A stretch of DNA of 32,000 nucleotides from Bacillus massiliigorillae (GTDB lineage Bacteria; Bacillota; Bacilli; Bacillales; DSM-1321). The stretch spans positions 1,546,654 through 1,578,653 of the forward strand of contig NZ_HG428741.1 of the NCBI RefSeq assembly GCF_000380245.2, in the 5' to 3' direction. Made by a program: the position numbers and the translations under genes. Position 1 is the first letter of the stretch, and every line of letters starts with the position of its first letter. Positions 5,586 through 30,772 of the stretch are shown in pieces. Below the pieces are notes generated by a model. The model had not been told where the DNA came from. It worked only from the letters and a program-made list of their open reading frames with translations, and ran no database searches.

Positions 5586-5589
5586 ATTA

Positions 5590-5825: not shown

Positions 5826-5858
5826 TGATTACTATTTTAGAATAGATTATAATGAGGC

Positions 5859-5872
5859 TGTAAACGGTTACA
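5859..5872. promoter_or_regulatory. LacI-family operator-like palindrome upstream of the regulator gene
   Basis: TGTAAACGGTTACA lies 35 nt upstream of the TTG 5907 start and fits TGTAAnCGnTTACA. Confidence 0.5.
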
Positions 5873-5906
5873 TCCATTTTATTAATTGTAAGGAAGGATG
5901 CTTAGA

Positions 5907-6887: not shown

Positions 6888-6889
6888 TA

Positions 6890-14098: not shown

Positions 14099-14480
14099 GA
14101 TATAAAAGTTATTCATCTCAATATCTGTTAACCAAATGCTTTAAGGGCAATATGTAAAATGGATTTATCAAGTAATTTCCTTCACCTGTTTTAAATAATG
14201 CATAAATAAATAATGATCCTATTGGAGCAAAAATAAATCCTATTAAACTATCTTTAGTAATTTTTCTGTAATAGTATATCTTATTTTTAATAATCAAAAT
14301 CTCTGACTAGTATTTTCAAGTTATCTCCTTCATAAAATATGACTTTTATTAAATATTTCAGCCTTGTAACAACAAATATTCACCATGTACATATCTATCT
14401 AAATAAATATCTTAGAATGATAGCCATTTCCATCTTGATTTTTATTGTTGATATTAATTCTTTTACAATCAATGACCTCG

Positions 14481-15150
14481 TGAACTACTCACCACTTATC
14501 GACCTTACGGTCTGATTGAAGTGGGAGATTCTTGGGAAGTAGATACTTTTACTAGCTATCTATATTTACCAAGCTATAAGGGTAGTACCCCTAAAGAAGA
14601 TACCAATTACGTAGCTAGTTTTAGCAAGTTGATACTTGCGTTTACATCCTTGTCATGGTGACTATTACACATCAATACCAACTATTGTATCAATCTTAGG
14701 GAATAGTTATTCATTTTCTTCTACCAAAACAGAAGCAAAATATTTGCTAGTTGGTGTTTGGAAAATGGTCACAGACTTAATCAAGCCAAAAAATGGTCTA
14801 TGTTGTTTGATTCGAACCAGTGTTTTTAGCTTGGGCAATTTAATATAGCCGTTTTCCATGTATACTGTTCCTTTTTGATTATTGTTTGTATAGCTGCGGT
14901 GATGGTCTTTTTTGCTTTTGAATTTTGGAAATCCAACGGATTTATCACGAAAAAAGTTAGCATATGCTTTGTTCAGGTTCAATTGTGCATTAGCCAAGGC
15001 AAGACTATCAATTTCTTTTAGAAACGGAAATTCAGCCTTATATTGTGCAGGAGTAGGATATTTGATGGATTTATCAATATTCTTTTGAGATTCTTGATAA
15101 GAATTGATCTTATCGGCAAGCATTTTGTTGTACACAAAGCGTTATTCTAA
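14481..15150 (-). mobile_element. tnpB: IS200/IS605-family tnpB-only element remnant: TnpB pseudogene with internal deletion plus retained right end
   Basis: The minus strand reads RFVYNKMLADK...GFPKFKSKKDHHRSYTNNN...IKLPKLKTLVRIK...KYFASVLVEENE, then TAA, then LFPKIDTIVGIDV. It then jumps to CNSHHDKDVNASINLLKLAT* (stop 14607-14609). Most of RuvC and the zinc finger are therefore deleted, and the first ~40 codons are also missing. Nucleotides 14481-14600 are homologous to 25821-25935. Confidence 0.75.
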
Positions 15151-15779: not shown

Positions 15780-16950
15780 AATAAATTAACAAAAACAGAT
15801 ATAATGGCTTCACATAAAGTAATTAAAAAAGATGAAAAAGAATGGATTAAAATTGAAAATGAATTGCCAACTACAATAGTGTGAGTAAATATCCAATGTG
15901 ATACCGACTCGTGCATGACCTAACCGCTTTCTCACAACTTTCGGATTTTCACCCATACGCATTAATATTGTTGCATGTGTATGTCGTAAATTGATTCACT
16001 GAACTTCTCTTTAAAGTCATGTTTGGATTCATTCATGAGACAATGCCTCTTTTTCGTAATGATTGCAGTTTACTTGTTGTAACGTAACGAACTCGTTTCT
16101 CTTCACTTTTAAAAGCATCTATTATCATCTTTATGTTGTTGCTCTCCTTGATAATGGTTTAGGTAGTTCATCTATCTACGGAAAGCATTACAACCACTTG
16201 GTGCTCTTGTGTCAATGGTAATGTTTTTAAAATGGGGAATGGTTGTTCAAATAGGCGGATGAAATACATCAGTTATATACAATCGATGCTGCAATTGATG
16301 AATGATGAAGCTTTGTTTGTGATGACTAATTAAGTAGAAGATATGATATGAAGCGCTGTATTGTTGTAAGTAGATCGCTAAAGTACATTCAGTCATGAAG
16401 TAAGTAGATGATCATTTGAGGATATAGAACTTTAGGTTTTGCGAGTTACAGACTATGAAAAATCCCCCCCCCGATCTCAAGAATCATATGGATTCAAGGA
16501 TAGAGGAGTGGTATTCATCTGAGGCATATTACTCTAGTGTAAAGCTGGGCACTTGATGATGCTGTTGGTTAATACCCGAATCTCTTCAACTCGTCACTTG
16601 CTTATTGAAAGCATATGCAGTTTCGCCCACATGTATCATGACGAGCACCATTGACCGTAATCAATCGAAACTCCGTCCGAACCGTTGAATGCTAGAAGCC
16701 GTTGCTGCTTCTCTAAGACTCGCAATCAGGTCATAACACAACAGTAAAGACCTTGACTAATAGATTGCTACGTTGATTTTCTGTATTGGCTCAACTCACC
16801 TTACCTATTTAAGGGCATTCCCACGGATATGCTTTTTTCTTGTAAGTTAATGTCGTGACTAGTAATGACAGCGTCTCAAAAGTCAGAGCCGCCCCTCTGT
16901 CATAAATGTAATAAAACCATTTGAGTACTACAAGGCATGGTTGAATTATT
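15780..16950 (-). pseudogene. heavily decayed tyrosine recombinase (phage-type integrase); outer boundaries approximate
   Basis: Minus-strand 15879-15992 translates to NLRHTHATILMRMGENPKVVRKRLGHARVGITLDIYSH. This is the box II HxxR, GH and catalytic Tyr region. A TGA lies immediately upstream in frame, and the remainder is broken by stops and frameshifts. No ORF of 60 aa or more exists on either strand across 15917-17142. Confidence 0.7.
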
Positions 16951-17164
16951 ATAAAGACAGGTAGATTTTATAGTGATTTTGACCTACAATTAATTAGTGT
17001 GAAAGTCCTTAATGAAAGAGTGACTTTGTAGCTAGATGAACAGAATAGGGTCAGAGTTTTTTGCTCAATGATGAGCATTTAAAGCTTTTTCGCCTAGATA
17101 ACAACTTGGAAAATGGTGAATTTGTAATTTACCTTATTGTATCTATAGGCTAAGGAGGTATTTC

Positions 17165-18214
17165 ATGTCGATATTTCGCATTAATAATGAAGCAAAACAG
17201 GCAAGAAACATAAGCAAGGAAAAGATGACTAAGTTATATGAAGTAAAGGGGAAAAATGTTCGGGTTGATTTTCTCGACGCAAGTTTTGGTGAATTAGATG
17301 GAAAGAAGATACCATTGGATGAGAGCGTGGTAACCCAGGCAACCAAACAGCTGTTAAAAGTCTTCTCAATAAATGAAACAAAATATAACCCAATTCCTGC
17401 TCACATCATCATTTCTAACAAGATGATAGAGGATAACCAATTTAATGGGAATTCGTCTGAAAGCGACTTCACTATTTCTGTTGCTGAACCTCGCTATTCT
17501 TTTTATGAAATATACCTACCAGCTAAAACAAAAAAGCAAATTATGACGGCTTTAACGATCCAAAAGCATAATGACAAGCTCCGTAATCAATGGGGATTAG
17601 AAACGATCCTTAAAGATGGACGAGCAGTCATATTGAACTTTTTCGGTTCACCAGGTACCGGGAAAAGCATGACTGCTGAAGCAATCGCTCATTATCTGGG
17701 CAAACAAGTAATTAATGTCAATTATGCACAGCTTGAGTCCAAATATGTTGGTGAAACACCAAAAAACATTAAAAGATACTTTACGGAAGCAACCGAAAAA
17801 AATGCTATTCTTATATTTGATGAAGCAGATTCCTTCCTTGGAAAAAGACTAACTAATGTAAGCCAGTCGGCCGATTATGGAGTGAATGTAACCCGAAGCG
17901 TTATGCTGATGGAATTGGAACAGTTTACAGGAGTTGTTATTTTTACGACGAACTTGCTTTCGAATTATGATCAGGCTTTCAAACGGAGAATTTTTGCCAA
18001 TATTGAATTTACCCAACCTGATCAAGAGGCAAGAGAGAAAATTTGGGATATTCATTTGCCGGAGAAGTTGCCAATTAAGGAAGGAATTACCGCCAATTTT
18101 CTGGCTGGGAAATTCGAGAATATCACCGGTGCTGATATCAAGGACATTGTTCTATATGCATCTATCAATTGCTTAGAGAGAGGCAGTGAAGTTATCCATT
18201 TAGAGGACTTTTAG
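17165..18214 (+). CDS. classic-clade AAA+ ATPase with ~130-aa unknown N-domain; in-frame TAG at 18212-18214, frame stays open to TGA 18326-18328
   Basis: AAGGAGG at 17152-17158. Walker A GSPGTGKS (17645-17668), Walker B ILIFDEAD, sensor-1 TTN and second-region-of-homology arginines FKRRI. The post-stop text EAYAYIIARYNN... looks like the end of the lid helix. Confidence 0.85.
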   Translation: MSIFRINNEAKQARNISKEKMTKLYEVKGKNVRVDFLDASFGELDGKKIPLDESVVTQATKQLLKVFSINETKYNPIPAHIIISNKMIEDNQFNGNSSESDFTISVAEPRYSFYEIYLPAKTKKQIMTALTIQKHNDKLRNQWGLETILKDGRAVILNFFGSPGTGKSMTAEAIAHYLGKQVINVNYAQLESKYVGETPKNIKRYFTEATEKNAILIFDEADSFLGKRLTNVSQSADYGVNVTRSVMLMELEQFTGVVIFTTNLLSNYDQAFKRRIFANIEFTQPDQEAREKIWDIHLPEKLPIKEGITANFLAGKFENITGADIKDIVLYASINCLERGSEVIHLEDF

Positions 18215-18340
18215 GAAGCGTATGCTTATATTATAGCCCGCTACAATAATGGCAATAATATCGAGATTAATTCGAAAATTATTTCTGAGGAACAATATAA
18301 AAAAGAAATGACTTTGGGTAAAGTCTGATGAGGTGCGGTT

Positions 18341-18997
18341 ATGATAACTAAACTTGTTCATTCCTATCAAAGTGCTAAACTGTCAGCTACAAAAAAGTTT
18401 TCTAATCATTGTTACGATATTTTGGAAGAGCCTGGATTTATGGATAATGGATATATCCGAGCGAAAATCAAGCAATTAAAAAAAGAATGTACCAATATAG
18501 AGAATGAAATAGAACTACTCCTTCAATATGATAAAAAGGATGAATACTATAAGCAAAAAGTGTCAGTTTTAATGGAAAATAGAGATTATATATTACATTA
18601 TCTTTCCTTTCTTTCATCCAACAGCTTTAACAGTCTGGAATACTCGATAAGCATGATTCAAAACATTCAAACAGATTTTTTTCTATGTTTGAATGCCCTA
18701 ATAAGTTATCAAAAGGGTGATGAAGAAAAGGCTTTAATGTTGTTTGAACAATATTTTGAAAAGTATCCAGAGCCAATAGAACACTTTTTAATTAACAAAA
18801 CTTATGGTGAGTTGCTTTTTAAACAAGATAACATCGAGAAAGCGGTGGCTCATCTAAGAAAAGCTACTGAAAAAAGACCCGAAGATGATGATGTCCATGT
18901 GATTCTTATTCAAGCATATCAAAAACTGGGTAACTATCATCAGGCTAAAATTCATGAAGATATCCAAAAGCTATTAGGTGGTGTGAATGATGACTGA
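18341..18997 (+). CDS. TPR-repeat protein (218 aa) with coiled-coil-like N-terminal half
   Basis: GAGGTG RBS. The C-terminal half shows TPR-like repeats (GDEEKALMLFEQYFEKYPE..., YGELLFKQDNIEKAVAHLRKATEKRPED..., ILIQAYQKLGNYHQA). Confidence 0.75.
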   Translation: MITKLVHSYQSAKLSATKKFSNHCYDILEEPGFMDNGYIRAKIKQLKKECTNIENEIELLLQYDKKDEYYKQKVSVLMENRDYILHYLSFLSSNSFNSLEYSISMIQNIQTDFFLCLNALISYQKGDEEKALMLFEQYFEKYPEPIEHFLINKTYGELLFKQDNIEKAVAHLRKATEKRPEDDDVHVILIQAYQKLGNYHQAKIHEDIQKLLGGVNDD

Positions 18998-19244
18998 TGT
19001 GAATTTTTTAAATAAGGACAACGGCATTTCTTCCACCCGGACCACGATTGGGAAAGGCAACGGTAAGGTGAGCTTAACCCAATATCATAACTCCACTAGA
19101 GGAGGCGTTACTTTTCGAAATTCTCAAATGACTTCTAGGGTGAACAACAAAGGGCAGTCGCTAAGCAGTGGTTTTAAAACAAACGGAAAAATGACTTACA
19201 TTGGAAGTAAGAACAAAGCTTCAAATACTATAGCTCCATTTTAA
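18987..19244 (+). CDS. small basic S/T/N/G/K-rich protein (85 aa), predicted disordered
   Basis: GGTGGTG RBS. Overlaps the TPR gene by 11 nt. No hydrophobic core (MMTDVNFLNKDNGISSTRTTIGKGNGKVSLTQYHNSTRGG...). Operon context supports translation. Confidence 0.55.
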   Translation: MMTDVNFLNKDNGISSTRTTIGKGNGKVSLTQYHNSTRGGVTFRNSQMTSRVNNKGQSLSSGFKTNGKMTYIGSKNKASNTIAPF

Positions 19245-19262
19245 AGATACGAGGTAACTAAA

Positions 19263-20069
19263 ATGATAGAAACCCATTTGTTTTCCCATCCGTTAGAAGA
19301 AACGGCATTTGATGAAGTAACTAAAACGGTAAATTTCAAAAGTGTACTTGAGGATCAATACATTCATTTTGAAGAGAAAAAGAGAAAACCCGATTTGTTA
19401 GGGAAGACAGTAAAAGTGAGTGAAAGGCAGTTTCCTGAAGTTTTTTACATAGTAAAAAAGATTGAACAGCGTACTAGGCTAAAGATGCCTGATATTTTTG
19501 TGTACGAAGACTTTTTTTATGCAATTGAAAGCAAAGGCATTGATAATCCGTGGATTGAGGTTTCGGCATCAATGATTACGGACTTTACAGAAAAAGAACT
19601 TGAATTTATGTTAGCAAGGGAAATTTGTAGAGTTTATTATAAGCATACCCACTATACTACATTAATGAATGAATCTCTTGAAATGTATGCAAAAGGTTTA
19701 ATTCCCTTTAGTAACGGTATTGTCGGAGATGTGGCTAAGGTCATTTTTTACAGATGGAACCGTCTAGCCAACTATTCGGCGGATTGTTTTGGCTATTTAA
19801 TCTGCATGGACCTGCATGCCTCAACAAAATCGATTCTTAAATGTGTGTTAAATAGTAAGTTTTTGGCTAACAATATCAATCTTGCAGAATACTTGAAACA
19901 AGCAGAAGCTATCAATGAGCTACATGATTCTGTTTACGAGTCAACAAAAATCGATGAACAATACCCTTATGGACCTTTTCGTATCAAGAATCTAATTGCC
20001 TTTGCTTCTTCAGAGAGAATGATACGGGCAAACAAACAACTTAAGAATTTTAAGGAGGTAGGACAATGA
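19263..20069 (+). CDS. M48-like (Zn-metallopeptidase fold) protein lacking the HExxH motif
   Basis: MPDIFVYEDFFYAIESKG...ELEFMLAREICRVYYKHTHY...WNRLANYSADCFG follows the M48 layout. However, REICR replaces HExxH, N replaces the third-ligand Glu, and there is no HExxH anywhere in the ORF. Confidence 0.6.
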   Translation: MIETHLFSHPLEETAFDEVTKTVNFKSVLEDQYIHFEEKKRKPDLLGKTVKVSERQFPEVFYIVKKIEQRTRLKMPDIFVYEDFFYAIESKGIDNPWIEVSASMITDFTEKELEFMLAREICRVYYKHTHYTTLMNESLEMYAKGLIPFSNGIVGDVAKVIFYRWNRLANYSADCFGYLICMDLHASTKSILKCVLNSKFLANNINLAEYLKQAEAINELHDSVYESTKIDEQYPYGPFRIKNLIAFASSERMIRANKQLKNFKEVGQ

Positions 20070-20422
20070 GTTTTCTAGCAGCATTAGGTTGGGTGTTATT
20101 GGGTGGAATAGTAACTGGAGGGTTGGTAACTTTCTGGGACGAAATCAGACAATGGTTGAATCAGGTAGCGGCTGATGCAGTGGAAAAGATGTTTGGTTAT
20201 AAAGCAAGGCAAACGATGCAACGGGCTGTAGTGAAAATTGACCGTGTAATGAGCAGCGTACGAAATACTTCGACCATTTATACAAAGAAGAATCCTTTGG
20301 ACTCATATATAGTTAAAACAGATGTAGTTGCCGAAGCATCGATTAGGGAAATCGACCAGCAAATTTTAGACGAAATTGAAAGGAAAAAGACACTTGTGCA
20401 AGAGTTTGAATACAAAGGATGA
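20066..20422 (+). CDS. single-pass membrane protein (118 aa)
   Basis: ATGA overlap with the upstream gene and AAGGAGG RBS. N-terminal TM segment FLAALGWVLLGGIVTGGLVTFW followed by a charged soluble domain. Confidence 0.7.
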   Translation: MSFLAALGWVLLGGIVTGGLVTFWDEIRQWLNQVAADAVEKMFGYKARQTMQRAVVKIDRVMSSVRNTSTIYTKKNPLDSYIVKTDVVAEASIREIDQQILDEIERKKTLVQEFEYKG

Positions 20423-20428
20423 TTGTAG

Positions 20429-22981
20429 ATGTTTAAAGTAAAGGAAATAAATGTAACTTCTATTGTCGATAAAGATCCTAATGTATATGTAATGAGAGCG
20501 GAAGATAATCTCAAATTACACAAATACCAGGAAGCATTGAGGGAAATGGATCAGGCGATAGAATATGCTCCTACTAATCAAAAAGAGAACTATGCCTTTG
20601 AAAAAATAAAAATACTTGATGTAATAGGTTGGCATTCCGATAGTGTTGACTTTATAAAAAAATATCTAAAAAGGTTTTATTCAGAGCTACCCTTATCTGA
20701 TTTCTATCGTGTTCTTCGTGTACTAAAAAAAAATAGTACATCTGATCTTTTCTCTATTCTTAAGCAAAATGGCATTCCAACCATATTGTTGGAAGTGTAC
20801 CAAAGTGAGCGGTCAGATGAAGCTTTCTTTAAACAAAAAGCCCGGGAGTATTTGAGTAAAGACCAATTTTCTAATGCATTTGCTATGACGAAGCTGATAA
20901 GTGAAAAGTCCGGGTTTGATTCAGATTTATGCCTTTTAAATGGACAAATTTATAAGGCACAAGGTACTTTTTCTGGAGCACTCTCCTACTTTTTGAAGGC
21001 AGCAGATTTCCGCGATCCACAATTAGAGGTTTTTATCGAAATTGCTGATACCTATGTCATTTTAGAAAAAATAAATGAGGCCCAGATCTGGATTGAAAAG
21101 GGGCTAGCTGCGTTCCCTTTCAATAACAAACTTTTACACTTTAATGCGAAACTTTATTATAGAAGTAATCAATATGATCTATGCTTATTAGTGTTAAACG
21201 ATATACTAAAAAAAGAACCTAATGACGCAGAAGCATTTTATATGAAAGGGTTAATTTACGATTATAGAAAAAGATATCTATTAGCAAATTCAAATTTTAA
21301 AAAAGCAAAAATTATAAACCCGAGCCTTAAGGAACCAGAGAACCGAGAAAAGAAACGATTCCTTCATCGGATGAAAATATTTGTTGTTAGTATAAGCATA
21401 GCTATATTACTATTGTTGATTGGGCAATTTGTACTATTTAAAACTGGAATGATCAAACCGATTGTGAAAGGGGCTATTCTTAAAACAGATGATATCCTCT
21501 TTTTAGGAAAAACGATGCAAATATACGATGACTATGACTACTTCCCTTCCTATGCAAAAAAGCCGAAAATGAAGTACAGGATTAAGGATCCTCATATTGC
21601 TAAAGTTAGTTCTTATGGAGAAATTAAGGGATTAAAGGTAGGTACCACATCTGTTCAATTACTTGAGGGAAATAGGGTTCTCGCCTCTTCTGAAATCAAG
21701 GTGGTTAAGCCAGAAGTTTTAGCAATAACAATTGAACTAACCAATAATAATTTAGTTGTCGGAGAAAAGGAAAAATTAACCACTAAAGTAGAAATGGATT
21801 ATGAAGATGCAGAAATCCCGAAAATTACATATAGCTCAAGTAATCCATCTGTTATTTCTGTTAATCAAGATGGAGAAATTGAGACACTAGATATAGGTGA
21901 GGCCACGATTAAAGCAAGCGTTGGTGGGAAAAGTTCTAGTTTTACAGTTCATTCATATGCCAAAGTGGATGAAATCCTCTTAGAAGATTTAATAGTGGAA
22001 ATTGGAAATTCTTTAACGTTAAAACCAACGGTAAAAACAACACCTGAAGATGGGGAAATCTATCCGTTAAAATATGAAACATTGGATAGCTCTATTGCCA
22101 CAGTAAATACTCATGGAGAAGTTACTGGCGTAAGTGCTGGTGAAGTTGAAATCGTTATATCTTCCTTTAATGGTGTGGAAAAAAGGGTCAAAGTTTTGGT
22201 TGAGATTAATAGTCCAAGTGATTTAACAGCAACGTTTGATATGGAAACTCAGACCATTCACTTAAACTGGGATTACGACTTTACTTCAAATGAAAGTGTA
22301 CAATTTGAATTGTCTGGAGCGATTGCTAATAATGATTACTCTGAAATACTCACCTCTAAAGAGACATCAGCTGAGTTTAAGGGGGTTTCTGGAGAGCAAT
22401 ATTCGTTTAGAGTTCAGGCAATAGTAGGTGATCGTATAAGTATGCCTGCATTCGTCTCATTGACCGTTCCCGAAATTTACAAAGAGGATAGTAATAACAT
22501 GGATTCTGACTCAAAGGTTTCAGATTCAAACTATGAAGAAGCTGAAGGGAGTAAGACCGTTTCTAAAACACCTGAAGAAATTCAAAAAGATAAAGATGTA
22601 GAAAACATGATAAAGCTTATGTCTAGTGTGGAGGGATATTGGAAAAATGCGAGCCCAAATGATAGTGATTATCGAGATCTTAAATATGCTCTCATAAGTA
22701 ATAGCTCTACAGAAAGTCGGAAGGATTCTTTTGGAGTATCATTACTTGCTAAAAGCTATTACGATGGAGTCGAAACCTCTTTTTGGGAATATGGTCTTCG
22801 ATCGAATTTGATTAAAATTGATGGAAATAAGCTAATTGATAGCGATGAAGACACAATGACAATCCATAATCCTAATATGTTTACAATAGAGATTAGCGGA
22901 AAGACATTAACCTTTATAAGATGCAAAAAAACTGATATCCCTAACGATTATCTTATAAATAGAACAGTTGAATTACCTTAA
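20429..22981 (+). CDS. 850-aa bitopic protein: N-terminal TPR region, one TM helix, three Big_2-like Ig domains, FN3-like domain, acidic linker, unknown C-terminal domain
   Basis: TPR-like text in aa 20-300. TM segment KIFVVSISIAILLLLIGQFVLF (nt ~21374-21442). Three repeats end ...SSNPSVISVNQDGEIETLDIGEATIKA, ...LDSSIATVNTHGEVTGVSAGEVEIVIS and ...IAKVSSYGEIKGLKVGTTSVQL. The FN3-like segment is PSDLTATFDMETQTIHLNWDY...YSFRVQAIV. Confidence 0.8.
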   Translation: MFKVKEINVTSIVDKDPNVYVMRAEDNLKLHKYQEALREMDQAIEYAPTNQKENYAFEKIKILDVIGWHSDSVDFIKKYLKRFYSELPLSDFYRVLRVLKKNSTSDLFSILKQNGIPTILLEVYQSERSDEAFFKQKAREYLSKDQFSNAFAMTKLISEKSGFDSDLCLLNGQIYKAQGTFSGALSYFLKAADFRDPQLEVFIEIADTYVILEKINEAQIWIEKGLAAFPFNNKLLHFNAKLYYRSNQYDLCLLVLNDILKKEPNDAEAFYMKGLIYDYRKRYLLANSNFKKAKIINPSLKEPENREKKRFLHRMKIFVVSISIAILLLLIGQFVLFKTGMIKPIVKGAILKTDDILFLGKTMQIYDDYDYFPSYAKKPKMKYRIKDPHIAKVSSYGEIKGLKVGTTSVQLLEGNRVLASSEIKVVKPEVLAITIELTNNNLVVGEKEKLTTKVEMDYEDAEIPKITYSSSNPSVISVNQDGEIETLDIGEATIKASVGGKSSSFTVHSYAKVDEILLEDLIVEIGNSLTLKPTVKTTPEDGEIYPLKYETLDSSIATVNTHGEVTGVSAGEVEIVISSFNGVEKRVKVLVEINSPSDLTATFDMETQTIHLNWDYDFTSNESVQFELSGAIANNDYSEILTSKETSAEFKGVSGEQYSFRVQAIVGDRISMPAFVSLTVPEIYKEDSNNMDSDSKVSDSNYEEAEGSKTVSKTPEEIQKDKDVENMIKLMSSVEGYWKNASPNDSDYRDLKYALISNSSTESRKDSFGVSLLAKSYYDGVETSFWEYGLRSNLIKIDGNKLIDSDEDTMTIHNPNMFTIEISGKTLTFIRCKKTDIPNDYLINRTVELP

Positions 22982-23113: not shown

Positions 23114-23290
23114 TTATGCGAAAAATCTATCAAATAACTTGTCTAAACTCCTTTTTATTCCACACTTAAAACTGTTTCTTCTTCATGCATCTATTTTTCT
23201 GGATTTTGTAATAAATTCACTTAAGTATCTGATTTTGGAGGAATTTATACAATTTTGTCGAATTTTACCTTAATATAGGAAAAGGAGGAG

Positions 23291-23476
23291 ATTGGGATCG
23301 CAGAATCAAAATGTCCAGAGTGTAAAGGAGAGGGATTAAAGCATATTCTACCTAAGGGGACTCACAAGAACATAGCAGGGGACACATGTTATGATATAGT
23401 TCATTGCGATAATTGTGGTCATGTGTATGGTGTATTTACAAGGGGTGGTAAATCTATTTATTATATGTCGAAATGA
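23291..23476 (+). CDS. possible small zinc-ribbon protein (~60 aa) without a canonical start codon
   Basis: AAAGGAGGAG at 23281-23290. The frame reads ...ESKCPECKGEG...HCDNCGHVYGVF...MSK* with two CxxC pairs. Only ATT 23291 or ATC 23297 is available in frame. A weak hairpin plus T-run follows at ~23505-23530. Confidence 0.35.
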   Translation: MGIAESKCPECKGEGLKHILPKGTHKNIAGDTCYDIVHCDNCGHVYGVFTRGGKSIYYMSK

Positions 23477-23710
23477 GACTGTACTAGTTAGATAGATAAT
23501 GGAGGAGCATCCGATGGGGGTGCTTTTTATTTGTGTACAATGGGTTCAATCTAAAACAATTTTTTGATTTCTTATATAACTAAACCAGCTAATAGTTTGT
23601 CAAACATTTCGCTAAATAATAAAATTCTAGCGTGCTATATTAAAAGTAGGCATGATAAATAAGCTTCCTTTAACCTTATGGAAGTTCCTTGAATATATGT
23701 GAAATATTAT

Positions 23711-24230
23711 TTAAGCAACATCTTGGAATGATGTTTTGTTTTTCAAAAGAGCGTAAATCCAATGTAAAAGCTTGTTAGCACAGGCAATAATGGATACTCG
23801 ATAAGGTTTGCCTTCTTCACGTTTTTTATCGTAGAACTCACGTAATCTCTTATTTCTAGGGATAATTTCTTTGGTCGTTCGGGTTTTGCGTGCATCTCTA
23901 ATAGGCACAACGGACGGATGTGAATAGGGCATGTCTAAGCCTGCTGGAACCCCTTTTTGTGATACGATTGTTAGTACCTTTAAAAGTACCAGATTCAAAT
24001 ACACTAGGGTCAATTCCTGCGAAGGCAACTAATTTTTTAGGGTGATTAAACCGGTCTATTTCTCCAATTTCAGAAATAATCGTTGCCGCGATTTTTTCAC
24101 CGATGCCAGGAATGGATTGGATAATCTTATATTCTTCTATATTTTTTACTAAAGCATCTATCTCTTCTTCAAGCTTGGATAGGTGCTTTATATATTCAAG
24201 AAGTATTTCGATAAGCACCTCTAAACAAAT
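23711..24230 (-). pseudogene. C-terminal half of an IS110-family transposase, frameshifted and 5'-truncated
   Basis: ...IIQSIPGIGEKIAATIISEIGEIDRFNHPKKLVAFAGIDPSVFESGTFKG...KRGSSRLRHAL. After a frameshift near 23920 it reads ...NKRLREFYDKKREEGKPYRVSIIACANKLLHWIYALLKNKTSF. The N-terminal DEDD domain is absent. The upstream boundary is approximate. Confidence 0.75.
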
Positions 24231-25720
24231 TAAGTGACTATGATTTGAACCTCTCATGACTAAAGTCACGAGATTCTTGGGAATAGAGCATACTTGTTAG
24301 CTTATTTCTTTACCAACAGAGGTTTCTCTTATTGACCAAGCTATCCCCGTAGTTCCAACGGTTTTTATTAATCTTAGCTCATACAAGAGCTTGTATTTTA
24401 AGACCTTCGGTCAAAATATTCTTGCTACCATTTATGTCTCGGTCATGATGAGTATGACAAATAGGATAATTCCATTTTCGAATGTGGAGATTTTTCTTGC
24501 CATCTTGATGCCCACATTCCGAACAGATTTGACTAGACGGAAACCATTGATCTACTTTGAGATTTCACGTCCATACCAATCAGCTTTGTATTGTAGCTTT
24601 GAAACAAAAATAGACCATGACACGTCTGAGATACTCTTTGCTAGTTTATGATTACGTAACATACCTTTCGTGTTTAAATCCTCTATACAAATAATATCGT
24701 GATTTTTGATAATGTTTGTACTCCATTTATTCAGAAAGTCATTACGTTGATTTAGTACTTTTTCGTGCAATCGAGCCACTTTTAGCTTTTGTTTCTGATA
24801 ATTTTTCGCTTCAAAAAGAGTAATGTCACTTTTTTGAGCAACTAATGCACGTCTGGATAATTTACGTTGTTCACGTTTCAATTTCTTTTCCATTTTGGAA
24901 GTGAATCTATTGTTATTAATCTTACTTCCGTCAGAAAGAATAGCAAAATCAGCGATACCTAAATCTATCCTAATTACAGAATTTATTTTTGTAAGTTCTT
25001 GGATTTCTTCTTCGCAAAGAATAGATACAAAGAATTTACCACTACCATTTTTACGAATGGTTGCATGTAAAATGCGCCCTTTCAGTTCTTGGCTTTTAGC
25101 AAACTTGACTAATCCAAGTTTAGGAAGTTTTATCGAATTTCCTAAAACAGCAATATTATGATTAGTGAATTGTGTTGTATAACTTTGAACAGGGTTCTTT
25201 TTACTCTTGAATCGAGGTTGCTGATTTTGTTTCTTAAAAAAACGAGAAAAAGAATCAGCAAGATTTTTCAGAGAAGATTGAAGAGCAATGCTATCCACTT
25301 CTTTCAACCAATTAGTCGATTCATCTTTCTTCATTTTGGGAAGCATAGAAGAACAAGAATGGTAAGATAAGCCTTTCCCATTCTTGAAATATTCTTTGTT
25401 CCATAGATTTAAAAAGTGGTTATAGACAAATCTTGAGCAACCAATCGTTTTAGTTATAAGGATTTCTTGATTTTGATTGGGATAGATTCTGAATTTATAG
25501 GCTTTGTGCCGTAGCATTGCATTCACCTCATCTCTTTTTCTGATTTTGAATATACTTACGAATCTGTACTTCTGTATTCTCACTTACAGTAGCAATAATA
25601 TAACTAGGATTCTATAGTTCATTTTTATACTTAAAGTAACATAAGTCGGTAGATTAATATAGCTAAAGCTATACTTCAACCGAAGCCGATTCATCTACAC
25701 GACTGAAGTCGCGAGTATTC
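24231..25720 (-). mobile_element. IS200/IS605-family tnpB-only element (IS1341-like) abutting the IS110 fragment; ends approximate
   Basis: Contains a near-full-length tnpB. There is a structured region downstream of its stop (24270-24378, sharing GAGATTCTTGGGAA with the 14.5 kb copy). A left-end-like hairpin is present at about 25690-25730: AGCCGA...TCGGCT with an inner CGAC-TTCA-GTCG, read on the minus strand. Confidence 0.65.
24379..25517 (-). pseudogene. tnpB: TnpB (RNA-guided nuclease of IS605 family) with one frameshift near 24553
   Basis: Probable start [18 protein letters not shown] (ATG 25515-25517, GAGGTG RBS). RuvC-I is IRIDLGIAD. The ORF stops at ...WYGREISK*, but the shifted frame continues [49 protein letters not shown]...* (stop 24379-24381). 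Confidence 0.8.
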
Positions 25721-25820
25721 TCGGCTATTTGATAAAAGCAAGTTACAAAAAAAGTTCTCTAATCAAGTGTCAGAAGAATTTCGGAAGCAAGATAGTACAA
25801 CAAGTAAGATAGAAAGAACA

Positions 25821-26630
25821 GTGAACTACCCATCACTTAACAGCCCTTACGGGCTTGTTTGAAGCGGGGGCTTCTCAGGTAATAGGTACTTTTACTAGCT
25901 ACCCAAATTGACCGAGCTAACTCCCTTGTTCAGAAAGGTTATATATGTATATCTTTCTATTCTAACGCCAATAGGCGTATGGCTTCATTCTTGATATTGA
26001 TTGCAGCGTTGTGATCACGTTCCATAATAGAGCCACAAGAACATTCATATGTACGTACAGACATAGGCATCTCTTTTTTATTTCCGCAACAAGAGCACGT
26101 TTGAGTAGAAGGAAACCACTTATCAACTTTGATAAGTTTCTTTCCTTGCTCTTCTAGTTTGTAAGTTAAGTAGGTTGTGAACATAACCCAATCATTGTCT
26201 GCAACGCTTTTGCCGAATTTTAACGCACGAGACATCCCTTTCATATTCAAATCTTCGACTGCAACGGCATCGAACACTGTTGCTAATTCTTTGGATTTGT
26301 GATGAAGGGAATTTTTACGTTGGTTAGCTACTTTTTCGTGTAATTTTGCAACAAAAAGACGTTGTTTTTTCCAACGTTCAGAACCTTTGATTCTTCTCGA
26401 TAATACTCTTTGTGCCTTTGTTAGGCGGTCCATTATTTGGCGAAAAAACGAGGGTAGTTGGCTTTCTTACCTTCGTTATCTACATATAATTCAGCCATCG
26501 CAAAGTCTAGTCCAACCACTTTTTCTAATTTGGGTTACACTATTTGTTTTTCATATAATGATTGTGATTAAAGATAAAATAGTAATTGTAACTTTGCTTG
26601 ATGGCGCAGAAGTTGAATGTTAAATTTAAT
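25821..26630 (-). mobile_element. tnpB: third TnpB element remnant: 5'-truncated, frameshifted tnpB plus conserved right end
   Basis: ORF 25957-26433 encodes ...EDLNMKGM...KVDKWFPSTQTCSCCGNKKEMPMSVRTYECSCGSIMERDHNAAINIKNEA. Upstream, EKVVGLDFAMAELYVDNEGKKANYPRFF lies in another frame, implying a shift in a T6 run near 26440. The N-terminus is lost. Nucleotides 25821-25935 are homologous to 14481-14600. Confidence 0.8.
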
Positions 26631-27277: not shown

Positions 27278-30200
27278 ATGACAAACATAGAGAAGAAGAA
27301 AGTACTTGAAATACTTGATTTTTGGAAGACGATAGAACTTTTAAATCAAGTAGATATCCCACAGGAGAGTGAAGACAATAAGAAAGTAGTAAAAAAGATT
27401 ACAAGAGGTGAACTGATTGATAGTAGTTTGGACAAGATTTCAATATTTACCAGTCTAAACGTGCCTTCGATTGATCTTTCTGATAAATTAAAAACCGACA
27501 AGGAGAAATTTTCTCGATTTCCTGGCGAGGGGGCAGATTTGTCATTCCTTTTTGGTAGAATTAAAAGGAATGACATGGTTGATTATCTTGCTAAATTTGT
27601 GAAGAATCATGATGAACAGCCAGACATAGCCTATCCGAAAAGAAGCGAGATTGCATGGTTCTCATTTAAAACTGATTCGGAAGGCATTTATCAGAAGAAT
27701 TCATTCCAGCTATCTCCACTTTTGTGGGCTATTTCTGTATGGAATAAAAAAGTCAATGGATTTTCTTTGAACTCGATTGATTATGATGATGAGACCAAAA
27801 AGTATGACAGTTGGCTTCAGGAAGCAGAGGAGTTATTTGCTGTATTGCCTTCTGTGTTTTCAGATATTCATAATTCATATGTGAAGACAATAACGCCGGA
27901 ACTTCCTGCTGATTATATAGGACTCTTTATCTATGACAGATACAAGAATGATGAGGCAAAGGATAAAGACGAAAATCCAGAAGATTATGCAAGTTTAGGT
28001 AAGAGCTTTTTTTTGGATGATATCGTTTTGCTCATAGATGAAATCAAAGCAGGAAAATTTGGAGAGGGTTCTGATTATGAGCGTAAAGTGATAAATTATA
28101 TTTTGTCTGCACATAATAAAACTGCAGGAATTATTCCAGCAAATTGTATATCTATTTCTCCAAAGGAAGAGCGTCAGAAGATGATGAATTTCTTTCAAAA
28201 TACCCTTAATATCAAAAATGCTCCACTAGGAAAGTGGCCTGCTAAATTCATGCCTGCTCTTATGCAACAGGTGGCAGTGAATCTTGCGATAGATGAAAAA
28301 GCACACACGGAAGTATTTTCTGTTAATGGTCCTCCTGGCACCGGAAAGACAACACTTCTCAAAGAAATCGTATCTAGCAATATAGTAAAAAGAGCTGAGC
28401 TGTTAGCGGAAGCGGCACATTCAGATCCGGACGATGCTTATGAGAGGTGTTCATTTACACAGGGACCGTTGGTTAGTAAGGGATATTTTCAGTATGCACC
28501 ATCTTATTTTAAGCTGAAGAATGATAAAATCAATCAATATGGAATGTTAGTGGCATCATGTAATAATTCGGCTGTTGAAAATATCACTGCAGACCTTCCT
28601 AAAAGTGATGACATTCTCAAGAGTCTTGAACCTTCAAAAGATGATGATGTATCGGTGGCGTCAGGATTGAATGAAGTTCATGATTTGTTTGACGTCGAAA
28701 AATCAGAAGATATTGAGCAAATAAAGATATCTGGTGAAATAAAAGAAGTGCGTGATATTTATTTCACGCGCTATGCTAATAAACTCCTAAATAGAAATGA
28801 CTGCTGGGGTCTTGTATCAGCTCCGTTTGGAAAACGTGCTAATATAAACAAGTACTGTGTATCTGTACTTAAAAAGTTTATTAACGATTATAAGCTTAAC
28901 AATGTGCGTGAGAAACATCGAAAGAAATATGTAGAGCAGAGAGAATGCTTTCTTAGACAGCTTAAGATTGTGAAAGAACTTGAGAAAGAGTTGGAAATCC
29001 TGTGTGACTATGCAAAGTCTTTGCCATTGACTAATGAGAATATTTCTGAGGATGATCTTGATAGAAAAATAAAAGAAAATTATGCATATGTAATGGAACT
29101 TGAGGAATCAAGACCTAGGGGATTATTCGGAAGATTGAAGAAAGATTCTACACGAGACAATTTGATATCAGAGAAAAAGATTGAGATCGAAGTTTTGAAA
29201 AAGCAAAAAGACGGTCTTTCAAAAATTGCTAGCTATCATAATCTTTTAAGCAGACATAGCGAAGGTGCTGAGAAGCTTACTCCTATTGATTCATCTTTTA
29301 TGGATAGATATGTATCGCTTGATGAGAGAGCATCAACGTGGGCACAGGATACAAATCCTTGGTTTACAGAGCATTACAACAGGGAGCGTGAAAAGCTGTT
29401 CTTGTATGCTTGTAAACTTCATAAGGAATTTGTAATTTCCTCTAAATCGTTTAGGCAAAATGTAATCAATCTTTTGATCGCATGGGATATGTATGATGAT
29501 TGTGATGAACGTATGGGTGAGAAAGACAGAATAGATGCCTTCCCAGCATTGATTCAGAATGTATTTCTCATTACCCCGGTTATATCAACTACATTTGCGT
29601 CTGCACAGACCTTCTTACGTGATATAAAGAGTCCGGGTACCCTTGGAACGCTTATTGTGGATGAAGCAGGGCAGGCACAACCTCAGATGGCGGTTGGAGC
29701 TTTGATGCGATGCAGAAGAGCTATAATTGTTGGAGATCCTAAGCAAATTGAGCCGGTTGTGACGGAAGAAACAGACATGATTAAAAGTCTTCTTACATCT
29801 GATTTACTTACACCATATAAGGACAAGAAAATATCTGTACAAGGCTTTGCTGATTATATTAATAGCTATGGCACTTTTCTTGGAGAAGATGAAGAAAAAG
29901 AGTGGGTTGGATGTCCGCTTACTGTACATAGACGTTGTATAGATCCGATGTATAGCATATCAAATCACCTTTCTTATGAAGACACTATGAAACAGCAGAC
30001 AGCACCACCAAAGGAAAACGCTGTGAAGACCTTTATCTTGGATAAGTCATATTGGATAAATGTTAAAGGTGAGGAACAGTCCGGCAATAAGAACCATTAT
30101 GTACCGTCACAAGGTCAGATTGTTCTAAAGCTTCTCGAAGAAAAATTCAAGAAAGACAGTAGTAATATACCGAAATTGTTTATTATTACACCATTCACGT

Positions 30201-30772
30201 CCGTGAAGAAGGGAATGATTGATGCACTAAGCAAATCGGATTTCTATAGACGTGAACCACGTGTAAGAAAATGGTTAAAAGATAAAAATATCGGAACTGT
30301 TCATACATTCCAAGGACAAGGAACAGATGAGGTTATATTCTTGCTTGGTTGCGATAAATCATCTGTAAAGGCGGCAAACTGGGTAAATAAAAATATTGTG
30401 AATGTGGCAGCCACAAGAGCTAAATACCGTCTATATATTATAGGAGACAAGGAAGTATGGAGTTGTAAGCCTGTGAAAGTTGCACGCGATACAGTTAATA
30501 ATGAGATATCATCGGATAATTTGATGACAATGCTATCAGGTTTTGAAAATACAGAGTCAGTTCTGGCACCTGCAATTCAAACTGCTGAAGTCAAAAAAAT
30601 GGAATTTACAACACAGGAAAAGAAGCGCGAGGTAGCGACTTTATCGGGAAACATATCAAAGGTCTGCCCGAAATGCGGAAAACCGCTTGTAGAACGAAAA
30701 AGTGAGTATGGAGTTTTTTATGGATGTAAAGGGTTTCCTAAGTGTAGATATACTGAGAGTACTAAGAAATAA
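27278..30772 (+). CDS. 1164-aa SF1 helicase of the Upf1/Dna2-like (AAA_11/AAA_12) type with unknown ~340-aa N-domain, coiled-coil insertion and C-terminal topoisomerase-type C4 zinc ribbon
   Basis: GGAG RBS. Walker A GPPGTGKTT (28328-28354), motif II DEAGQ (29660-29674), VGDPKQIEPV, HTFQGQGTDEVIF and VAATRAKYRLYIIG. Zinc ribbon CPKCGKPLVERKSEYGVFYGCKGFPKC (30665-30745). Confidence 0.9.
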   Translation: MTNIEKKKVLEILDFWKTIELLNQVDIPQESEDNKKVVKKITRGELIDSSLDKISIFTSLNVPSIDLSDKLKTDKEKFSRFPGEGADLSFLFGRIKRNDMVDYLAKFVKNHDEQPDIAYPKRSEIAWFSFKTDSEGIYQKNSFQLSPLLWAISVWNKKVNGFSLNSIDYDDETKKYDSWLQEAEELFAVLPSVFSDIHNSYVKTITPELPADYIGLFIYDRYKNDEAKDKDENPEDYASLGKSFFLDDIVLLIDEIKAGKFGEGSDYERKVINYILSAHNKTAGIIPANCISISPKEERQKMMNFFQNTLNIKNAPLGKWPAKFMPALMQQVAVNLAIDEKAHTEVFSVNGPPGTGKTTLLKEIVSSNIVKRAELLAEAAHSDPDDAYERCSFTQGPLVSKGYFQYAPSYFKLKNDKINQYGMLVASCNNSAVENITADLPKSDDILKSLEPSKDDDVSVASGLNEVHDLFDVEKSEDIEQIKISGEIKEVRDIYFTRYANKLLNRNDCWGLVSAPFGKRANINKYCVSVLKKFINDYKLNNVREKHRKKYVEQRECFLRQLKIVKELEKELEILCDYAKSLPLTNENISEDDLDRKIKENYAYVMELEESRPRGLFGRLKKDSTRDNLISEKKIEIEVLKKQKDGLSKIASYHNLLSRHSEGAEKLTPIDSSFMDRYVSLDERASTWAQDTNPWFTEHYNREREKLFLYACKLHKEFVISSKSFRQNVINLLIAWDMYDDCDERMGEKDRIDAFPALIQNVFLITPVISTTFASAQTFLRDIKSPGTLGTLIVDEAGQAQPQMAVGALMRCRRAIIVGDPKQIEPVVTEETDMIKSLLTSDLLTPYKDKKISVQGFADYINSYGTFLGEDEEKEWVGCPLTVHRRCIDPMYSISNHLSYEDTMKQQTAPPKENAVKTFILDKSYWINVKGEEQSGNKNHYVPSQGQIVLKLLEEKFKKDSSNIPKLFIITPFTSVKKGMIDALSKSDFYRREPRVRKWLKDKNIGTVHTFQGQGTDEVIFLLGCDKSSVKAANWVNKNIVNVAATRAKYRLYIIGDKEVWSCKPVKVARDTVNNEISSDNLMTMLSGFENTESVLAPAIQTAEVKKMEFTTQEKKREVATLSGNISKVCPKCGKPLVERKSEYGVFYGCKGFPKCRYTESTKK

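What the first reader, a model, noticed from the sequence alone, without database searches (positions are those of the whole stretch)
17152..22981. Tightly coupled six-gene operon (AAA+ ATPase, TPR protein, disordered basic peptide, HExxH-less M48-like protein, 1-TM protein, 850-aa TPR-TM-Big_2/FN3 protein) as cargo of a dead integrative island
Seen: there are six same-strand ORFs, each with an AG-rich RBS. Intercistronic distances are 12, -11, 18, -4 and 6 nt, counting the AAA+ frame to its downstream stop at 18328. I noticed no internal hairpin terminator. The operon is divergent from a decayed tyrosine-integrase gene and is followed by repeats and IS debris. Established: classic-clade AAA+ unfoldases combined with TPR scaffolds and protease-fold partners recur in NTP-dependent conflict and signalling systems, and Big_2/FN3 ectodomains are surface-recognition modules. 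Inference: this is a membrane-spanning sensor (the 850-aa protein) coupled to a cytoplasmic AAA+/TPR/pseudo-protease machine. The gene composition does not match any named defence, secretion or sporulation system that I can recall, so it is the best candidate for an undescribed system in this window.
Basis: partly seen in the sequence, partly recalled or inferred. Interest (0 to 1): 0.85.

Follow-up and report, generated by a model that had tools for sequence, protein, structure and literature searches.

The report
Conserved AAA+/dead-protease operon, variable partner
A real, tightly packed six-gene operon of Bacillus massiliigorillae turns out to be one copy of an undescribed gene module of spore-forming Firmicutes, in which a protein-unfolding ATPase, a TPR protein, a catalytically dead M48-type protease and a small membrane protein always travel together with one or more fast-evolving partner proteins that share a short N-terminal tag; its function is unknown.

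Summary
Six same-strand ORFs lie at 17165-22981 with the stated spacings, and the AAA+ gene carries an in-frame TAG at a conserved codon.

The block is not an accident of this genome. In 36 distinct groups of loci (g4 at most 90% identical between groups), from Bacilli, Clostridia and a Selenomonadaceae genome, the order AAA+ / TPR protein / (85-aa protein) / M48-like / 1-TM protein recurs. The AAA+ gene is present in 24 of 26 groups with enough upstream sequence.

New findings:
- The whole M48-like family, not only this copy, has lost both zinc-binding histidines. Its nearest outgroup keeps GHExGH.
- A natural TPR-M48-like fusion and a stand-alone TPR + M48-like pair exist.
- The sixth gene is a variable slot. 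Its products share only a roughly 95-aa N-terminal "handle". Downstream they carry TPR, Sel1, ankyrin, RCC1, MORN, beta-helix, Big_2/fn3, SH3b or SPOR modules, with or without a membrane helix, and they evolve fastest.
- Some copies sit beside recombinases or between IS elements.

No PADLOC or NCBIfam system and no paper found describes it. The most likely mechanism is a membrane-tethered unfoldase with a dead-protease receptor acting on handle-tagged partners. Its role (conflict or defence versus envelope) is unresolved.

The parts
17165..18214 (+). g1: classical-clade AAA+ ATPase, truncated to 349 aa by an in-frame TAG at 18212-18214. It has Walker A GSPGTGKS, pore loop KYVGE, Walker B ILIFDEAD, sensor-1 TTN and arginines FKRRI. 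A small N-terminal beta/alpha domain has no structural match.
18215..18331 (+). Same-frame remainder of g1 after the TAG (38 codons plus stops). It aligns to the conserved C-terminal tail 'I[ST]xE[EQ]YxKE' of intact homologues.
18341..18997 (+). g2: 218-aa protein with a helical N-terminal half and C-terminal TPR repeats. It is found fused to the M48-like domain in P0190 and paired alone with it in L014.
18987..19244 (+). g3: 85-aa basic protein rich in G/S/T/N, with the conserved pattern F..SS.R..T.Y..GG.T..R..G..G..TY. It is present in about half of the groups and absent from one clade.
19263..20069 (+). g4: soluble M48-fold protein without zinc ligands (AREIC in place of HExxH). The glutamate E120 is invariant.
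20066..20422 (+). g5: 118-aa protein with an N-terminal membrane helix followed directly by a conserved amphipathic helix (FWDxIxxWLNxxAAxxVE) and a small C-terminal domain. An N-out/C-in topology is inferred.
20429..22981 (+). g6: the variable partner of this copy, 850 aa. Its layout is handle (aa 1-95), cytoplasmic TPR, membrane helix (aa 317-335), three Big_2 domains, an fn3-like domain and an unassigned C-terminal domain.
20429..20713 (+). The N-terminal 'handle' of g6 (V.D.NP..Y..RAE.AL...A..E.D.AI). It is the only part shared by all partner proteins.
21377..21433 (+). Membrane helix of g6 (IFVVSISIAILLLLIGQFV). The N-terminal flank is rich in K/R, so an N-in/C-out topology is inferred.
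15880..15995 (-). Remnant of the C-terminal catalytic region of a tyrosine recombinase (LRHTHAT...LGHARVGITLDIYSH). The rest of the gene is broken by stops.
14707..15135 (-). A 142-aa minus-strand ORF read as an N-terminal TnpB fragment of an IS605-type element. This reading rests on its sequence and on the adjacent 64-nt repeat (14513-14576) shared with the region below the TnpB fragment at 25957-26433. Pfam gave no hit at E <= 0.001.
23711..26433 (-). IS debris downstream of the operon: an IS110-family fragment (23898-24269), a TnpB at 24552-25583 without a Pfam match to the C-terminal TNB domain, and a TnpB C-terminal fragment at 25957-26433. The 64-nt repeat copy lies at 25856-25919.

Best explanation
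The operon is one copy of a conserved Firmicute module. In this genome it is probably impaired.

Composition (shown): the core is g1 (AAA+ unfoldase), g2 (TPR protein), g4 (M48-fold protein that has lost its zinc site) and g5 (small membrane protein), usually with g3. The core works together with one or more 'partner' proteins encoded next to it. The partners share only a roughly 95-aa N-terminal handle and otherwise carry interchangeable binding or repeat modules.

Proposed mechanism (inferred):
- g2 and g4 form a non-catalytic receptor, in which the dead protease groove and the TPR act as a holdase.
- The receptor docks on the g1 hexamer, plausibly through the conserved acidic C-terminal tail of g1 binding the TPR.
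- g5 holds the assembly at the cytoplasmic face of the membrane.
- The receptor captures the handle of the partner, and g1 threads or remodels the partner from its N-terminus using ATP.
- The variable module of the partner decides when, where or on what this happens. In this copy that module is an extracellular Big_2/fn3 ectodomain. In other copies it is a cytoplasmic ankyrin, Sel1, RCC1 or beta-helix domain.

Proposed role (inferred): the patchy distribution, the mobile-element contexts and the fast-evolving partners favour a conflict or defence-type system in which the partners are the specificity (sensor) subunits.

In this window: the g1 nonsense codon removes the tail and the end of the lid domain, so this copy may be at an early stage of decay.
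For: Synteny:
- Among 36 groups of loci (g4 at most 90% identical between groups), g1 is present in 24 of 26 and g2 in 25 of 26 groups with enough upstream DNA. g5 is present in 25 of 30 with enough downstream DNA. Order, strand and tight spacing are the same throughout.
- The two groups without g1 are an IS3-disrupted copy (L030) and a two-gene g2+g4 variant (L014).

g2-g4 coupling: P0190 is a natural g2-g4 fusion (g2 profile 1e-20 at residues 48-292, g4 at 319-579).

Dead protease:
- All representatives with E below about 5e-33 to the g4 profile lack HExxH.
- The next shell has G-H-E-x-G-H-I-K, and intermediate sequences keep only the second histidine.
- The M48 fold is confirmed by structure search.

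g1 is a competent unfoldase in homologues: Walker A and B, the KYVGE pore loop, sensor-1 and the arginines are nearly invariant. The best solved relatives are VAT, p97 and Cdc48.

Handle: pairwise BLAST between partner proteins matches only residues about 5-100, and a profile finds 34 handle-bearing ORFs. Some loci carry 2-3 of them.

Partner modules seen: TPR, Sel1, ANK, RCC1, MORN, beta-helix, Big_2/fn3, SH3b and SPOR.

The partner evolves fastest, and its handle is more conserved than the rest of the protein.

Mobile or variable contexts:
- IS6 copies on both sides (L023).
- A large serine recombinase directly upstream (L026, L027).
- An integrase remnant and IS debris in the window.
- Neighbours that include BrxC, a type I R-M-like pair, a HepT toxin, SUKH immunity proteins and a Mokosh-like helicase.
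Against: - No physical interaction, ATPase activity or phenotype has been tested.
- No recognisable effector (nuclease, TIR, pore toxin or active protease) is present in the core.
- The handle shows no homology to any core protein (hhalign probability at most 1.4%), so which subunit reads it is a guess.
- Within C. perfringens and Peptacetobacter hiranonis, every copy examined lies at the same chromosomal site: a capsule locus and a site next to sialic-acid genes, respectively. A metagenomic copy also lies in a polysaccharide locus. This looks more like a housekeeping or envelope function than a defence island.
- There are no copies on phage or IMG/VR contigs, and none closely related on plasmids.
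- Defence-gene neighbours were not tested against a background rate, and most of the 133 neighbours scanned are ordinary genes.
- Pulling a partner with a 500-aa folded ectodomain through the membrane from the cytoplasmic side is mechanically implausible, so 'threading' may be limited to the cytoplasmic part.
Confidence: 0.42

Rival explanations
1. A dedicated envelope machine. The AAA+/TPR/dead-M48/g5 core helps to insert, export, position or turn over handle-tagged proteins that act at the cell surface (binding to wall, septum or polysaccharide). This would be analogous to the pairing of a pseudoprotease with a Cdc48-type ATPase (Derlin-p97) or to the inactive FtsH motors of chloroplast import.
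For: - Many partners carry extracytoplasmic or wall-binding modules after a membrane helix: Big_2/fn3, SH3b and SPOR. Others carry polysaccharide-type beta-helices.
- Two independent copies lie inside capsule or exopolysaccharide loci.
- g5 has a layout of membrane helix plus amphipathic helix.
- M48 proteases (HtpX, BepA, Ste24) are membrane or envelope protein quality-control enzymes by established knowledge, and they are the structural matches of g4.
Against: - Several partners are soluble ankyrin, Sel1, RCC1 or TPR proteins with no membrane helix or signal peptide.
- No channel-forming component is present beyond a 1-TM protein.
- The distribution is sporadic among close relatives, and copies lie in IS or recombinase contexts, which is unusual for an envelope biogenesis function.
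Confidence: 0.25
2. A toxin-antitoxin-like or abortive-infection module of the IetAS type. The ATPase keeps a toxic partner in check (the small membrane protein g5 or the M48-like protein), and loss of control kills or arrests the cell.
For: - g1 matches IetA profiles (PADLOC 3e-28; NCBIfam IteA 1e-24).
- IetAS is described as an ATPase antitoxin with a protease toxin (PMC13069673, read).
- Small single-helix membrane proteins are common Abi effectors (general knowledge).
Against: - The IetA similarity is no stronger than that to PAN or Cdc48 (93 and 76 bits) and is far below the family cut-off of 510.
- The protease-fold partner is catalytically dead family-wide.
- B. massiliigorillae tolerates a truncated ATPase next to intact g4 and g5, which argues against an essential antitoxin, unless the truncated protein still works.
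Confidence: 0.12
3. A transmembrane signalling device of the BlaR1 or anti-sigma type. The ectodomain of the partner senses a ligand, and the cytoplasmic complex releases or destroys a regulator to change transcription.
For: - g4 also resembles the BlaR1 M56 domain structurally.
- The window partner has a sensor-like topology.
- An HTH_16 gene follows the operon in C. perfringens.
Against: - No DNA-binding or sigma or anti-sigma component is conserved with the block in the other loci.
- g4 cannot cleave anything with a standard zincin mechanism.
- Many partners are not membrane proteins.
Confidence: 0.07

Closest known systems
IetAS / IteAS (Gao_Iet) anti-phage and plasmid-stabilisation system
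   Same: A classical-clade AAA+ ATPase is encoded next to a protease-fold protein. g1 hits IetA profiles, including part of the region N-terminal to the ATPase core.
   Different: - IetS is an active subtilisin-like serine protease, whereas here the partner is an M48-fold protein without zinc ligands.
- Three to four further conserved genes are present (TPR protein, 85-aa protein, 1-TM protein, handle-tagged partner).
- g1 scores 87.5 bits against the IteA cut-off of 510.
M48 metalloproteases of membrane and envelope quality control (HtpX, BepA with its TPR domain, Ste24/ZMPSTE24) and the FtsH-HtpX pairing
   Same: The same parts are present: an M48 fold, TPR repeats, an AAA+ unfoldase and a membrane location. 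g4 aligns to the HtpX active-site helix and matches the 3c37, ZMPSTE24, BepA and HtpX structures.
   Different: - The parts are separate polypeptides.
- g4 is soluble, and both histidines of HExxH are replaced throughout the family.
- The Pfam M48 score is below threshold (14.2 against 20.3).
NTPase-centred conflict systems with variable repeat sensors (Kaur, Burroughs, Iyer and Aravind 2020, PMC7159879)
   Same: The logic is shared: an ATP-driven chaperone-type core, inactive peptidase domains, and fast-diversifying TPR, ANK or beta-propeller-type modules, with sporadic distribution.
   Different: - The components differ. There is no MoxR-vWA, STAND or FtsH, and no effector-associated domain shared between a core protein and the partner.
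- The paper's text has no M48 or classical-AAA+ system of this composition.
Pseudoprotease plus Cdc48/p97-type ATPase machines (Derlin-p97 in ERAD; Ycf2-FtsHi import motor). Named from general knowledge as an analogy only.
   Same: A protease fold that has lost catalysis serves as a substrate receptor for a classical AAA+ unfoldase at a membrane.
   Different: The protease folds are unrelated (rhomboid and FtsH M41 against M48). These are eukaryotic or organellar systems, and no homology is implied.

Membership tests
AAA (PF00004), classical clade | Pfam score above gathering threshold; Walker A/B, pore loop 1, sensor-1 and arginine fingers present | tested here: met
   88.2 bits against a cut-off of 21.2. 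The motifs are read in the alignment. The best solved relatives are VAT, p97 and Cdc48 at E 5e-32 to 1e-27.
IetA/IteA anti-phage ATPase (NCBIfam NF042959) | Score at or above the curated equivalog cut-off of 510 bits | tested here: not met
   87.5 bits. This is comparable to the scores for PAN (93.4) and Cdc48 (76.1).
IetAS system | Adjacent IetS subtilisin-like serine protease | tested here: not met
   No IetS or serine-protease hit for any of g2-g6 in PADLOC, Pfam or NCBIfam.
Peptidase_M48 (PF01435) | Pfam score above the gathering threshold of 20.3 bits | tested here: not met
   14.2 bits, E 0.039. A few family members and the outgroup do pass.
Peptidase_M48 (PF01435) | M48/zincin fold | tested here: met
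   The AlphaFold model has pLDDT 89.8. Foldseek hits are 3c37, ZMPSTE24, BepA, HtpX and BlaR1, with probabilities 0.9-1.0 but modest TM-scores of 0.3-0.5. The viral library gives M48 hits.
Peptidase_M48 (PF01435) | HExxH zinc-binding and catalytic motif | tested here: not met
   The motif reads A-R-E-I-C-R in the window. No representative with E below about 5e-33 has HExxH at this position. Only the glutamate is kept.
Any PADLOC v2 defence system | Profile hits to the components of one named or candidate system | tested here: not met
   Only g1 has hits with E below 0.001 (IetA, TRIP13, mad8). g2-g6 have no such hit.
Big_2 / fn3 surface modules (g6) | Pfam scores above threshold | tested here: met
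   Big_2 scores 83.5 bits against 22.8, in three copies. fn3 scores only 18.7 against 25, so the fn3 call is tentative.
Integrative island bounded by attachment sites | Intact or decayed integrase plus direct repeats or a tRNA at the borders | tested here: inconclusive
   An integrase remnant is present. There is no tRNA in the window. The only flanking direct repeat lies next to the two flanking IS605/TnpB fragments and so probably belongs to those elements rather than to attachment sites.

The most novel reading that the evidence does not exclude
This is a previously undescribed family of Firmicute immune or conflict systems. A Cdc48-like unfoldase, equipped with a catalytically dead M48 receptor and a membrane tether, reads out a set of interchangeable, fast-evolving sensor proteins through a common N-terminal handle. 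Some of these sensors project Ig-like, SH3b or SPOR domains outside the cell, so that invaders or damage could be sensed at the cell surface as well as in the cytoplasm.
Probability: 0.22. Interest if true: 0.85.

Novelty: new variant of a known kind. Interest (0 to 1): 0.66.

Why it matters
If the module is a working machine, it adds a new way in which bacteria use a classical AAA+ unfoldase. The unfoldase would be paired with a protease fold kept only as a receptor, and with a plug-in slot for partner proteins marked by a common tag.

This gives a concrete, testable case of pseudoprotease-plus-unfoldase cooperation in bacteria.

It also assigns a context to several 'hypothetical' families: the 85-aa protein, the 1-TM protein and the handle domain. 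These occur in gut and soil Firmicutes, including C. perfringens.

If the role is defence, it would be a system type missing from current catalogues, which are heavily biased to Proteobacteria. If the role is in the envelope, it may bear on capsule or surface-protein biology in C. perfringens.

Tried and rejected
- Structure search with the g1 N-terminal domain (model pLDDT 74.5) gave no significant PDB match.
- Profiles of g3 and g5 found nothing among solved structures.
- A search of the 5.8-billion-protein set with the handle profile returned only 4 fragments, because the domain is too short for that database size. The catalogue of partners therefore rests on loci fetched by other routes.
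- hhalign found no homology between the handle and g1, g2, g3 or g5, so a homotypic adaptor (death-domain-like) model was rejected.
- Rfam found no riboswitch or leader. No tRNA is present.
- Phage, IMG/VR and plasmid searches gave no close relatives. The distant Thermus and Rhodococcus plasmid hits are active M48 enzymes in other contexts.
- A PADLOC scan of 133 neighbouring ORFs gave scattered hits: BrxC, a MkoC-like helicase, LeoA/LeoBC, Csx1, RmrA, and TnpB scored as Cas12f. I could not locate all of them in a follow-up call, and there is no background rate, so no enrichment claim is made.
- Five literature searches and three papers read found no description of this gene set.
- A Pfam call on raw frame translations of the integrase region failed because of stop codons. 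It was replaced by direct reading of the frames.
- Sporulation, T7SS/EccA and eCIS/Pvc15 analogies were considered. They were set aside because the other defining genes of those systems were not seen in the loci examined.

Full report
**What is in the window**

The window is Bacillus massiliigorillae chromosome: g4 is 100% identical to a RefSeq protein of that species, and the other five products are also on record under generic names.

Six ORFs on the + strand occupy 17165-22981:
- g1: 17165-18214
- g2: 18341-18997
- g3: 18987-19244
- g4: 19263-20069
- g5: 20066-20422
- g6: 20429-22981

Each is preceded by a purine-rich ribosome-binding site. The gaps are 12 nt (counted from the downstream stop at 18328; 126 nt from the real TAG), -11, 18, -4 and 6. 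Terminator-like hairpins inside the block are no more frequent than in shuffles. The first convincing terminator is at 23502-23528.

The g1 frame is interrupted by TAG at 18212-18214. The 38 codons that follow align to the C-terminus of intact homologues of 385-426 aa. The TAG replaces the D/E of a conserved DF[DE]xAY motif. RefSeq annotates the 349-aa product as an ordinary 'ATP-binding protein'.

**What the proteins are**

- g1 is a classical-clade AAA+ (PF00004, 88 bits). Its best solved relatives are VAT, p97 and Cdc48. It has an intact Walker A, a KYVGE pore loop, Walker B, sensor-1 and arginines.
- The roughly 90-residue N-domain of g1 gave a moderate model (pLDDT 74.5) of a long beta-hairpin plus a helix. 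It has no significant structural neighbour.
- g2 has a helical N-terminal half and C-terminal TPRs.
- g3 is basic and rich in G/S/T/N. It has invariant residues in 11 orthologues, so it is a conserved small protein rather than random disorder.
- g4 scores below the Pfam M48 threshold. Its profile nevertheless aligns 'LAREIC' to the HtpX active-site helix 'LAHEVSH'. Its model (pLDDT 89.8) matches M48 and M56 structures.
- g5 has one N-terminal membrane helix followed by a strongly conserved amphipathic helix.
- g6 is TPR, then a membrane helix (residues 317-335, with a K/R-rich N-side), then three Big_2 domains, a sub-threshold fn3 and an unassigned C-terminal domain.

**The block is conserved**

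This gave 36 groups of loci whose g4 proteins are at most 90% identical to each other.

| Gene | Groups with the gene | Groups with enough flanking sequence |
|---|---|---|
| g1 | 24 | 26 |
| g2 | 25 | 26 |
| g5 | 25 | 30 |
| g3 | about half (one clade lacks it) | 26 |

The two groups without g1 are a copy cut by an IS3 insertion (L030) and a two-gene g2+g4 variant in Clostridium massiliodielmoense (L014).

Named hosts or bins are Bacillus, Peribacillus, Neobacillus, Rossellomorea, Lysinibacillus, Ureibacillus, several Clostridium species, Peptacetobacter, Herbinix, and Lachnospiraceae, Oscillospiraceae and Selenomonadaceae bins.

**The protease is dead family-wide**

An exhaustive profile search of 1.84 billion representatives found 57 proteins at E <= 1e-30, 808 at E <= 1e-10 and 2006 at E <= 1e-3. 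I aligned the 147 listed hits not already retrieved to the profile:
- No protein with E below about 5e-33 has HExxH at the motif position. These read A-[RK]-E-x-C/x.
- A middle shell keeps only the second histidine.
- The next shell (E about 1e-32 to 1e-20) almost uniformly reads G-H-E-x-G-H-I-K.

The family therefore descends from active soluble M48 enzymes and has been kept without a zinc site. Only the glutamate (E120) and a set of other polar residues remain invariant.

One representative, P0190, is a natural fusion of a g2-like region and a g4-like domain. Together with the stand-alone g2+g4 pair, this argues that the TPR protein and the dead protease work as one unit.

**The sixth gene is a variable slot with a common handle**

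BLAST among the proteins encoded after g5 matches only their first 50-110 residues. The alignment shows a motif V.D.NP..Y..RAE.AL...A..E.D.AI, and a profile finds 34 such ORFs in the loci.

Beyond the handle, the architectures differ:
- TPR-TM-Big_2(-fn3) in the window, P. asahii, L. timonensis and Herbinix.
- Big_2 plus SH3b in C. aceticum.
- TM-SPOR in C. perfringens.
- MORN-TM-SH3b in Ureibacillus.
- Beta-helix, ankyrin and RCC1 propeller proteins.
- Sel1 repeats and 3-TM proteins with only a loosely similar, TPR-like N-terminus (not detected by the handle profile) in part of the clade without g3.
- A 1375-aa unassigned protein in P. hiranonis.

Some loci carry two or three handle proteins (L006, L029, L046). 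One variant has none (L015).

The partner is always the fastest-evolving gene. Between the window and P. asahii it is 54% identical, against 62-79% for the core. Within the partner, the handle is the best-conserved part.

The handle shows no detectable homology to any core protein.

**Context**

In the window:
- Nucleoside-utilisation and phosphoketolase genes precede the operon.
- Next come an IS605-like fragment (read from sequence; no Pfam hit) and a tyrosine-recombinase remnant on the opposite strand.
- IS110 and TnpB debris and a Mokosh-like SF1 helicase follow the operon.
- There is no tRNA. The only flanking direct repeat lies beside the IS605/TnpB fragments.

Elsewhere:
- The block is bracketed by two IS6 copies (L023).
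- It follows a large serine recombinase (L026, L027).
- It sits next to an orphan BrxC (C. aceticum) and beside a type I R-M-like pair (L047).
- It also sits in capsule or EPS loci (C. perfringens, L022) and next to sialic-acid genes at the same site in all P. hiranonis-type copies examined.
- It was not found on phages or IMG/VR contigs. Plasmids hold only distant active M48 relatives.

**Interpretation**

Shown:
- The module is conserved and co-inherited.
- g2 and g4 are coupled.
- The loss of catalysis in g4 is ancient and maintained.
- The ATPase is competent in homologues.
- The partners are modular with a shared tag.

Inferred:
- g2 and g4 act as a receptor for the handle.
- g1 remodels the partner.
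- g5 tethers the complex to the membrane.
- The acidic tail of g1 docks on the TPR.

The biological role is open. The patchy distribution, mobile contexts, fast-evolving repeat-type partners and several defence neighbours favour a conflict system. Wall-binding ectodomains, capsule-locus positions and the known envelope-QC role of M48 enzymes favour an envelope function. The IetAS resemblance is generic: 87.5 bits against a cut-off of 510, similar to the scores for PAN and Cdc48.

No paper found describes this gene set. The absence of a description is limited by the library searched.

**Verdict**

This is a genuine, conserved and apparently undescribed multi-protein module built from known kinds of parts. 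The copy in this window carries a nonsense codon in its motor gene.

Noticed in passing
window 27278-30772 (+): A 1164-aa SF1 (Upf1-like, AAA_11/AAA_12) helicase with a C-terminal topoisomerase-type zinc ribbon. It matches the PADLOC Mokosh MkoC profile at 8e-61 over the helicase part, and no PLD nuclease domain was detected. It may be a defence-type gene at the far edge of the same IS-rich region.
   Followed up: partly
window about 23290-23476 (+), terminator 23502-23528: A small ORF encoding a CxxC...CxxC zinc-ribbon peptide lies behind a strong aaaggagga ribosome-binding site, about 300 nt after g6. It is followed by the only convincing intrinsic terminator of the region. Its start codon is unclear (possibly non-canonical), and it was not seen after the operon in other loci.
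   Followed up: no
window 14513-14576 and 25856-25919: A 64-nt direct repeat (78% identity) lies just below the IS605-like fragment at 14707-15135 and the TnpB fragment at 25957-26433, one on each side of the island and in the same orientation. These are probably the element ends or the guide-RNA regions of two decayed copies of one IS605-type element.
   Followed up: partly
L024 (Thermus thermophilus plasmid pTthSNM3-3c) 7625-8915: A distant M48 relative of g4 (24% identity) is encoded directly after an HNH endonuclease gene, with only a 1-nt gap. The pair lies inside a defence island (Swt1-type HEPN, RelE/HicB, type I-U CRISPR). It may be a separate two-gene system.
   Followed up: no
L039, L043, L044, L045, L049 (metagenome contigs), gene after g5: In part of the clade that lacks g3, the gene after g5 encodes a protein whose N-terminus is conserved within the set (MPNWSEPKV...AERAYVNA in three of the five). 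It is followed by three membrane helices in the three complete copies, and further secreted or anchored proteins follow in L039 and L049. This looks like a distinct subtype of the module.
   Followed up: partly
L023 (Peribacillus asahii) 6857-7564 and 14276-14983; L030 5394-6949: The whole operon is bracketed by two IS6-family transposase genes in P. asahii, in a composite-transposon-like arrangement. In L030 an IS3-type element has cut off the start of g4.
   Followed up: partly
P0198, P0200, P0212, P0230 (representative proteins): These are long proteins (680-1150 aa). Two look high-G+C (P0212, P0230) and two low-G+C (P0198, P0200). They carry a g4-like domain that keeps only the second histidine of HExxH, fused to a 400-850-aa N-terminal region with no Pfam match in the three members scanned (P0198, P0200, P0230). 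This is an unexplored sister branch of the dead-M48 family.
   Followed up: no
window 427-1173, 3331-3738, 4351-4959, 5280-5937 (+): Several ORFs of 100-250 aa upstream of the LacI/ribokinase/nucleoside-hydrolase cluster have no Pfam match.
   Followed up: no
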